In this document: positions 4,017 through 5,104 of the stretch, in pieces
Position numbering within the stretch: the first letter of the stretch is position 1
Layout: every line of letters begins with the position of its first letter
From: Escherichia coli
GTDB taxonomy: Bacteria > Pseudomonadota > Gammaproteobacteria > Enterobacterales > Enterobacteriaceae
Reading direction: 5' to 3' (one strand)
Assembly: GCF_044324875.1 (NCBI RefSeq)
Contig: NZ_CP172185.1
Length of the DNA: 64,000 nt
Notes under the pieces: model-generated
The model's input: only the letters and a program-made list of their open reading frames with translations
Told to the model about the DNA's origin: nothing
The model's database searches: none
Position numbers and translations under genes: made by a program

Positions 4017-4970
4017 ATGTCATACCCACTTTTTGACAAAGACGAGCACTGGCATAAGCCAGAGCAGGCGTTTCTCACCGATGACCACCGGACCATTCTG
4101 CGCTTCGCCGTAGAGGCGCTAATGTCCGGTAAAGGAGCGGTGCTGGTGACGCTGGTGGAAATACGCGGCGGCGCGGCGCGCCCGCTCGGGGCTCAGATGG
4201 TGGTGCGCGAAGATGGTCGTTACTGCGGTTTTGTCTCTGGCGGCTGCGTGGAGGCCGCTGCCGCTTTTGAAGCGCTGGAGATGATGGGCTCAGGCCGCGA
4301 TCGCGAAATTCGCTATGGCGAAGGTTCGCCGTGGTTTGACATCGTTCTGCCCTGCGGCGGTGGGATCACGCTGACGCTCCATAAACTACGCTCGGCACAG
4401 CCTCTGCTCGCCGTGCTGAACCGCCTGGAACAGAGAAAACCGGCGGGTCTGCGCTACGATCCGCAAGCACAATCGCTGGTGTGCCTGCCCACGCAAACCC
4501 GGACAGGCTGGAATCTCAATGGCTTTGAGGTGGGGTTCAGGCCATGCGTCAGGCTGATGATTTACGGACGTTCTCTTGAGGCGCAGGCAACCGCGAGTCT
4601 TGCAGCAGCCACAGGCTATGACAGCCATATCTTCGATCTTTTTCCGGCCTCAGCCAGCGCTCAGATCGATACCGATACGGCGGTCATTTTGCTGTGCCAT
4701 GATCTCAACCGGGAGCTGCCAGTGTTGCAGGCCGCGCGAGAAGCAAAACCCTTTTATCTCGGCGCATTGGGCAGCTATCGAACCCACACTTTACGTCTGC
4801 AAAAGCTCCACGAGCTGGGATGGTCCAGGGAGGAGACAGCGCAAATCCGGGCACCCGTCGGGATATTCCCCAAAACCCGGGATGCGCATACTCTGGCACT
4901 CTCCGTGCTGGCAGAAGTCGCCGCTGTACGTCTCCGTCAGGAGGATTCATGCCTGCCCCCATCGTCCTGA
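4017..4970 (+). CDS. paoD: XdhC-like molybdenum cofactor insertion chaperone
   Basis: 317-aa ORF directly downstream of paoC; XdhC/CoxI-like, fourth gene of the pao operon. Confidence 0.85.
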   Translation: MSYPLFDKDEHWHKPEQAFLTDDHRTILRFAVEALMSGKGAVLVTLVEIRGGAARPLGAQMVVREDGRYCGFVSGGCVEAAAAFEALEMMGSGRDREIRYGEGSPWFDIVLPCGGGITLTLHKLRSAQPLLAVLNRLEQRKPAGLRYDPQAQSLVCLPTQTRTGWNLNGFEVGFRPCVRLMIYGRSLEAQATASLAAATGYDSHIFDLFPASASAQIDTDTAVILLCHDLNRELPVLQAAREAKPFYLGALGSYRTHTLRLQKLHELGWSREETAQIRAPVGIFPKTRDAHTLALSVLAEVAAVRLRQEDSCLPPSS

Positions 4971-5056
4971 TCCTCGCGGCGGGGCGTGGGGAGCGCTTCC
5001 TCACCTCCGGGGGAAATACCCATAAATTAAGAGAAAAATCTGCAGTAGCCGTTTAA
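4949..5056 (+). pseudogene. 35-codon N-terminal remnant of a MobA/MocA-like nucleotidyltransferase
   Basis: ATG at 4949 overlapping the paoD 3' end; translation MPAPIVLILAAGRGERFLTSGG is the glycine-rich N-terminal nucleotide-binding motif of NTP-transferases, but the frame stops after 35 codons. Confidence 0.35.
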
Positions 5057-5070
5057 GAAAATCACCTAAA

Positions 5071-5104
5071 TCGTTTAAAAGAGCGCCCAACCCATAGTGG
5101 GCGC
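5071..5104 (-). terminator. Rho-independent terminator downstream of the MFS gene
   Basis: GC stem gcgccca / tgggcgc (5083-5089, 5098-5104) followed on the minus strand by a T-run (plus-strand aaaaga at 5075-5080). Confidence 0.4.

What the first reader, a model, noticed from the sequence alone, without database searches (positions are those of the whole stretch)
4949..5104. Truncated nucleotidyltransferase gene start fused to the end of the pao operon
An ATG overlapping the paoD 3' end opens a frame whose first 20 residues look like the N-terminal nucleotide-binding loop of MobA/MocA-type NTP-transferases (LILAAGRGERF), but it stops after 35 codons. PaoABC uses a molybdopterin cytosine dinucleotide cofactor made by a MocA-type enzyme, so this may be the stump of a once-linked cofactor-maturation gene, marking a rearrangement junction between the pao operon and the adjacent MFS/hydrolase/LysR module.
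Basis: inference. Interest (0 to 1): 0.35.

Follow-up and report, generated by a model that had tools for sequence, protein, structure and literature searches.

The report
Stump of lost pao-linked MocA-like gene
The short frame after paoD is the dead 5' end of a fifth pao-operon gene, a MocA-like nucleotidyltransferase that related enterobacteria still carry intact; it is an ordinary pseudogene scar that marks where conserved pao DNA meets variable DNA.

Summary
Window 4949..5056 (+) is a 35-codon frame. Its ATG overlaps paoD by 22 nt and follows a GGAGGA ribosome-binding site.

Codons 1-27 match the N-terminus of full-length 183-187-aa PF12804 (MobA-like NTP transferase) proteins. These are encoded at exactly this position in relatives whose PaoD is 72-89% identical (tblastn E 8e-12 to 6e-9). 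Of 26 PaoD loci from other species, 24 carry the intact fifth gene.

DNA homology to every relative stops at window 5025-5029. The last 8 codons read into unrelated DNA.

None of 5,426 complete E. coli genomes has the full gene. About 3,600 carry only its first 77-78 nt, and no 3' remnant exists elsewhere.

The frame's end differs between strains (26, 35, 49 or 109 aa). It is therefore not a conserved small gene.

In K-12-type genomes a further ~5.9-kb deletion between two CATAA pentamers fused the stump in frame to half of a LysR gene. That fusion is the annotated 136-aa yagP.

E. coli makes the cytosine dinucleotide cofactor with the unlinked mocA (b2877), which plausibly made the loss tolerable.

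Verdict: real, explained, low to moderate interest.

The parts
170..4007 (+). paoA (170..859), paoB (856..1812) and paoC (1809..4007), the structural genes of the periplasmic aldehyde oxidoreductase
   Evidence: ORFs. RefSeq annotation of the 99%-identical locus L001 (identity). Pfam labels of orthologues.
4017..4970 (+). paoD, the XdhC-family molybdenum cofactor insertion chaperone (317 aa)
   Evidence: PF02625 E 1e-20 and PF13478 E 5e-20. Annotated as paoD in L001.
4940..4945 (+). GGAGGA ribosome-binding site, 3 nt upstream of the stump's ATG and inside the paoD 3' end
   Evidence: Read directly from the sequence. The window and K-12 differ here by a 3-nt GGA-repeat indel.
4949..5029 (+). 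Homologous stump: codons 1-27 (MPAPIVLILAAGRGERFLTSGGNTHKL) of a lost MocA-like NTP-transferase gene. It contains the N-terminal nucleotide-binding loop LAAGRGERF.
   Evidence: tblastn E 7.6e-12 to 6e-9 against five full-length orthologues. Alignment A2 shows 22 invariant columns.
5025..5029 (.). Breakpoint: the end of all homology to pao operons of other genera, and the divergence point between the two E. coli locus types
   Evidence: blastn end points at 5025-5029 for L003, L005, L007, L008, L009. K-12-type genomes align only as far as window 5025.
5030..5056 (+). Read-through tail (REKSAVAV plus stop), translated from unrelated DNA and not conserved between E. coli strains
   Evidence: No match to the orthologues. 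Among the W-type E. coli alleles read, the frame ends after 26, 35, 49 or 109 aa.
5082..5105 (-). GC-rich hairpin (AGCGCCCA / TGGGCGCT) followed on the minus strand by TCTTTT. It is probably the terminator of the convergent MFS gene and belongs to the right-hand DNA.
   Evidence: Fold of -18.1 kcal/mol, z -1.96. The strict terminator scan did not list it, so this is an inference.
5149..8625 (.). Right-hand module: MFS transporter (5149..6342, -), alpha/beta hydrolase (6418..7575, -) and LysR regulator (7741..8625, +)
   Evidence: ORFs. RefSeq annotation. Not orthologous to the downstream genes of relatives.
8846..10475 (.). Decayed, AT-rich stretch between the module and thrW: a ykgR fragment, a hypothetical gene, a truncated SDR gene (9753..10304, -) and an integrase fragment (about 10317-10475)
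   Evidence: RefSeq pseudogene annotations of the 98.4%-identical locus L038, mapped to the window. GC drops to 0.36.
10490..10565 (-). thrW (tRNA-Thr, anticodon CGT), the island-integration site. It is unoccupied in this genome.
   Evidence: ARAGORN. proA, proB and phoE follow. In K-12 the prophage CP4-6 lies between the thrW/proA side and yagP.

Best explanation
Window 4949-5029 is the 5' remnant (26-27 codons) of a fifth gene of the pao operon. That gene was a MobA/MocA-like nucleotidyltransferase. By family and operon context it most likely added CMP to Mo-molybdopterin to make the cytosine dinucleotide cofactor that PaoD inserts into PaoC.

The E. coli lineage lost the rest of the gene at one breakpoint (5025-5029). 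This happened either by a deletion or because the pao DNA entered on a fragment that ended there.

The surviving ribosome-binding site and ATG, still overlapping the paoD stop region, probably allow translation of a short junk peptide (inferred, not shown). That peptide ends wherever the adjoining unrelated DNA first gives a stop codon. It cannot be an enzyme, because about 85% of the fold is missing.

The loss was plausibly tolerated because E. coli has the unlinked mocA (b2877), which the literature names as the source of the cofactor for PaoD.

In K-12-type genomes a second event, a ~5.9-kb deletion between two CATAA pentamers, joined the stump in frame to the C-terminal half of a LysR gene. 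This created the annotated chimeric ORF yagP.
For: Shown:
- Intact 183-187-aa PF12804 genes lie at this exact position in relatives. L003 and L008 have the same 22-nt overlap with paoD.
- 24 of 26 species loci have the intact gene.
- The stump is 78-93% identical to residues 1-27 of those proteins, and nothing else in the 64-kb window matches them.
- DNA homology ends at 5025-5029.
- 0 of 5,426 complete E. coli genomes hold at least 80% of the gene, and no 3' piece lies elsewhere.
- 912 genomes have the window-type junction and 2,678 the K-12-type junction, out of about 3,600 with paoD.
- Frame ends of 26, 35, 49 and 109 aa in window-type strains (136 or 55 aa in K-12-type), a 1-nt deletion in O157 and O145, and replacements in the conserved loop (E15K, R16C, S20C) all indicate decay.
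- The best NCBIfam match of the intact protein is MocA/YgfJ TIGR03310, E 1.6e-25.
- mocA is present in E. coli K-12, next to yqeB.
- The literature states that MocA makes MCD for PaoABC and hands it to PaoD (PMC3909100; PMC10845959).
- K-12 yagP starts at the stump's ATG. Intact yagP reads ...AATCATAAGTGTATC... in O157. The window-type strain CB6837 carries the K-type stump allele.
Against: - The cytidylyltransferase activity of the intact fifth gene is inferred only. It scores 90 bits against a cut-off of 186 for the MocA equivalog. It is only about 20% identical to E. coli MocA.
- Translation of the stump has not been shown.
- I did not test whether species with the intact gene also have a ygfJ-type mocA, so 'redundancy allowed the loss' is an inference.
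- The substitutions among the alleles read comprise five amino-acid replacements and four synonymous changes within the stump (a fifth synonymous difference, K26 AAA/AAG, comes from yagP through the K-12 deletion), from my count on the sequences. This sample is too small to show neutrality formally.
- Deletion and acquisition boundary cannot be distinguished.
Confidence: 0.93

Rival explanations
1. The 35-codon frame is a genuine small-protein gene of E. coli, co-translated with paoD. For example, it could be a peptide that assists PaoD, and it only resembles NTP transferases.
For: A strong GGAGGA site and an ATG overlapping the paoD end are retained in the ten E. coli stump alleles that could be read. 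The first 26 codons are present in about 3,600 genomes.
Against: The frame's end is not conserved: 26, 35, 49 or 109 aa, and 136 or 55 aa in K-12-type genomes. O157 and O145 carry a frameshift. Conserved loop residues are replaced (E15K, R16C, S20C). The frame does not exist as a short gene outside E. coli; relatives have the 184-aa gene instead. RefSeq does not annotate it in the window-type genomes.
Confidence: 0.03
2. An island or mobile element inserted into an intact fifth gene. The gene is therefore split, and its 3' part lies at the far end of the insert.
For: The right-hand DNA lies between the stump and the thrW integration hot spot. It contains an integrase fragment, pseudogenes and an AT-rich stretch.
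Against: No 3' part of the gene occurs anywhere in the 64-kb window at protein level. None occurs in any of 5,426 complete E. coli genomes at DNA level. The far side of the variable DNA is thrW-proA-proB, the conserved backbone.
Confidence: 0.03
3. The match is a chance resemblance, because a glycine-rich loop motif is common, and there never was a fifth gene in this lineage.
For: Profile scans of the peptide alone gave no NTP-transferase hit.
Against: 25 of 27 residues and about 87% of 78 nt are identical to the syntenic gene of L003. The alignment runs on without a break from paoD. E-values are down to 7.6e-12.
Confidence: 0.01

Closest known systems
MocA (YgfJ, b2877) of E. coli, the CTP:molybdopterin cytidylyltransferase
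   Same: Same Pfam family (PF12804) as the intact fifth gene. It is that gene's best NCBIfam match (TIGR03310, E 1.6e-25). Both share an N-terminal AAG...R loop (ITAAGLSSRMG against ILAAGRGERF). Both have a functional link to PaoD and PaoABC (PMC3909100).
   Different: Only about 20% identity, and the score of 90 bits is below the equivalog cut-off of 186. mocA is unlinked to pao in E. coli. The window holds only 26-27 codons, not a gene.
xdhC-mocA gene pairs in other bacteria: B. subtilis pucA-pucB, Arthrobacter nicotinovorans pAO1 xdhC-mocA, and an O. carboxidovorans XdhC/MocA operon
   Same: An XdhC-family chaperone gene sits directly beside a MocA-like transferase gene. This is the arrangement seen in the intact five-gene pao operons of relatives (PMC2997495).
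   Different: Those pairs are intact and serve other molybdoenzymes. In E. coli the pair is broken and only the transferase's first 79-81 nt remain. The literature read here calls paoD the last gene of the operon (PMC3909100).
yagP (b0282) of E. coli K-12, annotated as 'putative LysR family substrate binding domain-containing protein'
   Same: It starts at the very same ATG and shares the same first 26 codons as the stump. It is the K-12-type version of this scar.
   Different: In K-12 the stump is fused in frame to 110 codons of a LysR C-terminal domain by a further ~5.9-kb deletion. The window keeps the older junction with the MFS module and has a 35-codon frame.
MobA/MocA-related proteins with solved structures (Sulfolobus Q97W15, 3d5n; the chain deposited as 'MobA-related / MocA-related protein', 2we9)
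   Same: These are the nearest solved relatives of the intact fifth-gene protein by sequence (E 1.9e-6 and 1.6e-3).
   Different: They are distant, and their matches cover residues 62-174, which is the part missing from the window.

Membership tests
MobA-like NTP transferase (Pfam PF12804), MocA type | N-terminal nucleotide-binding loop (hydrophobic strand, then xAAG/AGGxxxR) | tested here: met
   VLILAAGRGERF is invariant between the stump and the full-length orthologues. In those orthologues, residues 6-50 align with the N-terminal loops of the MobA, IspD and GlmU models.
MobA-like NTP transferase (Pfam PF12804), MocA type | A complete domain of about 160-190 residues, including the C-terminal half (GMG.S, PADLP, GHP and DIDT in the orthologues) | tested here: not met
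   Only residues 1-27 are present. Nothing else in the window matches residues 28-184. The peptide gives no PF12804 hit.
MobA-like NTP transferase (Pfam PF12804), MocA type | The profile score reaches the curated threshold | tested here: not met
   The stump gives no hit. The intact orthologues score 95 and 89 bits against a cut-off of 27, so the ancestor gene was a member and the stump is a fragment of one.
MocA/YgfJ equivalog (NCBIfam TIGR03310) | Score above the equivalog cut-off of 186.45 bits | tested here: not met
   The intact orthologues score 90 and 81 bits. They are about 20% identical to E. coli MocA. They form a related but separate subfamily.
MocA/YgfJ equivalog (NCBIfam TIGR03310) | CTP-specific cytidylyl transfer to Mo-molybdopterin | not testable with these tools
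   This needs an enzyme assay or complementation of an E. coli mocA deletion with an intact fifth gene.
Gene remnant (truncated pseudogene) | Homology to an intact gene at the syntenic position in relatives | tested here: met
Gene remnant (truncated pseudogene) | The missing part is absent, not displaced | tested here: met
   There is no 3' part in the window or in 5,426 complete E. coli genomes.
Gene remnant (truncated pseudogene) | Signs of decay: variable frame end, frameshifts and replacements at conserved residues | tested here: met
   Ten E. coli alleles were read. Frames end at 26, 35, 49, 55, 109 or 136 aa. O157 and O145 have a 1-nt deletion. E15K, R16C and S20C occur. A formal dN/dS was not computed.
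Conserved small protein gene | Same length and stop codon across strains and species | tested here: not met
   (within E. coli). (other genera have the long gene).

The most novel reading that the evidence does not exclude
The stump is not inert. Its retained ribosome-binding site and ATG keep ribosomes translating across the paoD stop region. This coupled translation, or its product (the 35-aa peptide here, the 136-aa stump-LysR chimera YagP in K-12), could have acquired a role. Possible roles are tuning paoD expression or mRNA stability, or binding PaoD through the surface that once docked the transferase.

Separately, two independent rearrangements ended within 1-8 nt of each other at CATAA (5021-5029). 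This could mark a local recombination hot spot.
Probability: 0.05. Interest if true: 0.4.

Novelty: new member of a known kind. Interest (0 to 1): 0.22.

Why it matters
The result corrects a small point of textbook E. coli genetics. The pao operon is described as paoABCD with paoD last. In most relatives sampled it is a five-gene operon with its own MocA-like transferase, and E. coli carries the scar of that gene.

It explains the odd start of the K-12 ORF yagP. Its first 26 codons come from a nucleotidyltransferase, not from a LysR regulator.

It gives molybdoenzyme researchers a candidate dedicated cytidylyltransferase to test with PaoD and PaoABC.

It also fixes, to within 5 nt, the boundary between conserved pao DNA and the variable DNA beside the thrW island hot spot.

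It does not reveal a new kind of system.

Tried and rejected
- Pfam and NCBIfam scans of the 35-aa peptide gave no NTP-transferase hit. I attribute this to the peptide's length. The only Pfam line, LonC_helical at E 0.25, is noise.
I went through PaoD and gene neighbourhoods instead.
- I searched for the missing 3' part of the gene in the window and in all complete E. coli genomes. Nothing was found. The only extra hits were IS256-like matches to L003's downstream DNA.
- I tested whether the MFS, hydrolase, LysR1, SDR and YagP genes are orthologues of the genes downstream of the fifth gene in relatives. They are not (at most 40% identity). L009's similar-looking MFS(-)/LysR(+) pair is only 26% and 24% identical. 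A simple internal deletion within a conserved block was therefore rejected.
- I tested whether K-12's yagP fragment derives from the window's LysR at 7741..8625. It does not (28% identity). It derives from a second LysR gene, intact in O157.
- The terminator and promoter scan of 4800-5300 listed nothing.
- Rfam gave only sub-threshold noise: Esr41 at 20 bits against 102, and skipping-rope at 19 against 36.7.
- Comparing P0018 with an E. marmotae-labelled PaoD to name L008's organism was inconclusive.
- Neumann et al. 2009 (PMC2755913) is not held. A search for the TAAG/LAGG specificity motifs returned only unrelated papers. Any statement that LAAG points to CTP rather than GTP therefore rests on my memory only and is not used as evidence.

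Full report
**What is in the sequence.** The window is E. coli chromosome. Window 1-9185 is about 99% identical to the locus fetched from strain ETEC1738, and a 1,001-nt stretch around the stump is 99.8% identical to it. paoA, paoB, paoC and paoD occupy 170..4970 on the + strand.

At 4949 an ATG opens a 35-codon frame, MPAPIVLILAAGRGERFLTSGGNTHKLREKSAVAV, with its stop at 5054-5056. GGAGGA lies at 4940-4945. The ATG overlaps the paoD 3' end by 22 nt. Its end coordinate (5104) runs on into a hairpin that belongs to the neighbouring gene.

**Is it more than chance?** I could not search with the peptide itself. It is too short for the protein search, and the profile libraries returned no NTP-transferase family for it. 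I therefore went through PaoD.

PaoD relatives of 72-88% identity were located on contigs. In every one of them a 183-187-aa gene with Pfam PF12804 (MobA-like NTP transferase) follows paoD directly. In the two closest, L003 and L008 (about 88% DNA identity over the operon), it overlaps paoD by the same 22 nt.

Aligned to these proteins, the stump is identical at 22 columns, including VLILAAGRGERF. A tblastn search of five such proteins against the whole 64-kb window hits only 4949-5029. The match covers residues 1-27 with E 7.6e-12 to 6.1e-9, and nothing else scores below E 0.5. At the DNA level the alignment runs without a break from paoD into the first ~78 nt of the fifth gene and then stops.

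**How general is the intact gene?** A scan of one genome per species with PaoD returned 26 loci. Of these, 24 encode a full-length fifth gene immediately after paoD. They include a Pluralibacter MAG, Leclercia, Enterobacter, Silvania, Siccibacter, Pseudenterobacter, Cedecea, Dryocola, Kosakonia, Citrobacter sedlakii, Pseudocitrobacter, Pseudescherichia and four Asaia species. The exceptions are Erwinia sp. 198 and a short E. coli-like fragment.

The intact protein scores PF12804 at E 6e-27. Its best NCBIfam model is MocA/YgfJ (TIGR03310, 90 bits), which is below the equivalog cut-off of 186. It is only about 20% identical to E. coli MocA, b2877. It is therefore a MocA-like paralogue. Cytidylyltransferase activity is an inference from family and operon context.

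**State in E. coli.** None of 5,426 complete genomes holds 80% or more of the fifth gene. Those that have pao match only nt 1-77/78 of it, and no 3' piece is found elsewhere. About 3,600 genomes carry the paoD 3' end, and they fall into two types. In 912 the stump is joined to the MFS side, as in the window. In 2,678 it is joined to a LysR fragment, as in K-12.

The ten E. coli alleles that could be read show decay:
- In window-type strains the frame ends after 35 aa (window, ETEC strains), 109 aa (a lost stop), 49 aa (+1 A) or 26 aa (-1 C in O157 and O145).
- In K-12-type strains it ends after 136 aa, or 55 aa where IS1 has inserted.
- Conserved loop residues are replaced (E15K, R16C, S20C).

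The frame is therefore not kept as a small gene.

**The junction and its right side.** Homology to all relatives ends at 5025-5029. To the right lie these features:
- a hairpin (5082-5105), likely the terminator of the convergent MFS gene (not listed by the strict scan);
- the MFS transporter, an alpha/beta hydrolase and a LysR regulator;
- an AT-rich decayed stretch with a ykgR fragment, a truncated SDR gene and an integrase fragment;
- thrW at 10490-10565, followed by proA, proB and phoE.

This genome therefore has an unoccupied thrW site. None of the right-hand genes is orthologous to what follows the fifth gene in other genera. The stump thus marks the boundary between the conserved pao block and lineage-specific DNA beside an island hot spot. 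That block starts about 130-150 nt upstream of paoA. Whether the boundary arose by deletion or as the end of an acquired fragment cannot be decided here.

**The K-12 version.** In MG1655 the annotated ORF yagP (b0282, 297381..297791, 136 aa) overlaps paoD by 22 nt. It begins with the stump's ATG and 26 codons, and it continues in frame into a LysR substrate-binding domain.

O157:H7 has the window-type junction and, about 5.9 kb further on, an intact 299-aa LysR gene. That gene reads AATCATAAGTGTATC at the point where K-12 joins it. The only shared sequence at the two ends is CATAA. A window-type strain (CB6837) carries the K-12-type stump allele. The K-12 type therefore derives from the window type by a 5,868-bp deletion between two CATAA pentamers.

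The left end of this second event lies within 1-8 nt of the first breakpoint. I have no explanation for this beyond coincidence or a local hot spot.

**How it works.** The stump cannot be an enzyme, because residues 28-184 of the fold are gone. Translation of a junk peptide by coupling to paoD is likely but untested.

E. coli supplies the cofactor through the unlinked mocA. According to the literature, MocA makes MCD for PaoABC and passes it to PaoD (PMC3909100; PMC10845959). Linkage of xdhC-like and mocA-like genes is known in other bacteria (PMC2997495). The same literature calls paoD the last gene of the E. coli operon. I found nothing on the origin of yagP.

**Verdict.** This is a real, well-explained gene remnant. 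It is of annotation-level interest rather than a new kind of system.

Noticed in passing
K-12 locus L002 6353-6763 (= NC_000913.3 297381..297791, yagP b0282): The annotated K-12 ORF yagP is a chimera. It has 26 codons of the MocA-like stump fused in frame to 110 codons of a LysR substrate-binding domain. The fusion arose by a 5,868-bp deletion between two CATAA pentamers in a window-type ancestor. The annotation describes it only as a LysR-family protein.
   Followed up: yes
window 5021-5029, compared with L002 6425-6431 and L039 9001-9007: Two separate rearrangements, the original truncation and the K-12-type deletion, have left ends within 1-8 nt of each other. CATAA occurs 10 times in the deleted 5.9 kb, so the choice of this copy is unexplained.
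   Followed up: partly
proteins P0001-P0007 (448 aa) from E. coli assemblies: Some E. coli encode a 448-aa 'XdhC family protein' that carries XdhC domains plus a LysR_substrate domain. Its length fits a frameshift near the paoD stop that joins PaoD, the stump and the YagP fragment into one frame. The DNA was not inspected.
   Followed up: no
window 4936-4945, compared with L002 6337-6349: There is a 3-nt GGA-repeat length difference (CAGGAGGA against CAGGAGGAGGA) in the paoD C-terminus. It gives PaoD 317 aa here and 318 aa in K-12, and it lies in the stump's ribosome-binding site.
   Followed up: no
window 8800-10480: An AT-rich stretch (GC 0.36-0.44) between the LysR gene and thrW holds a ykgR fragment, a small hypothetical gene, a truncated SDR gene (intact in O157, L039 7619-8341) and a 159-nt integrase fragment next to thrW. 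It looks like the residue of an old thrW island.
   Followed up: partly
L002 6862-6941, compared with window 10463-10541: K-12 has an 80-nt copy (91% identical) of the thrW region between yagP and intF, at the pao-proximal end of prophage CP4-6. ETEC1738 has a similar 64-nt copy before its integrase (L001 10936-10999). These are presumably attachment-site repeats.
   Followed up: no
window 5073-5133 (-): There is a weak Rfam match to the EHEC sRNA Esr41 (20 bits against a gathering score of 102, E 0.26). It overlaps the hairpin after the MFS gene and is most likely just the terminator-like stem.
   Followed up: no
E. coli genome collection: About 1,800 of 5,426 complete E. coli genomes have no match to the paoD 3' end at all, so the pao operon is not universal in the species. 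The genome-contig scan (one genome per species) with PaoD also returned no E. coli chromosomal locus; I did not check which genome represents E. coli there.
   Followed up: no
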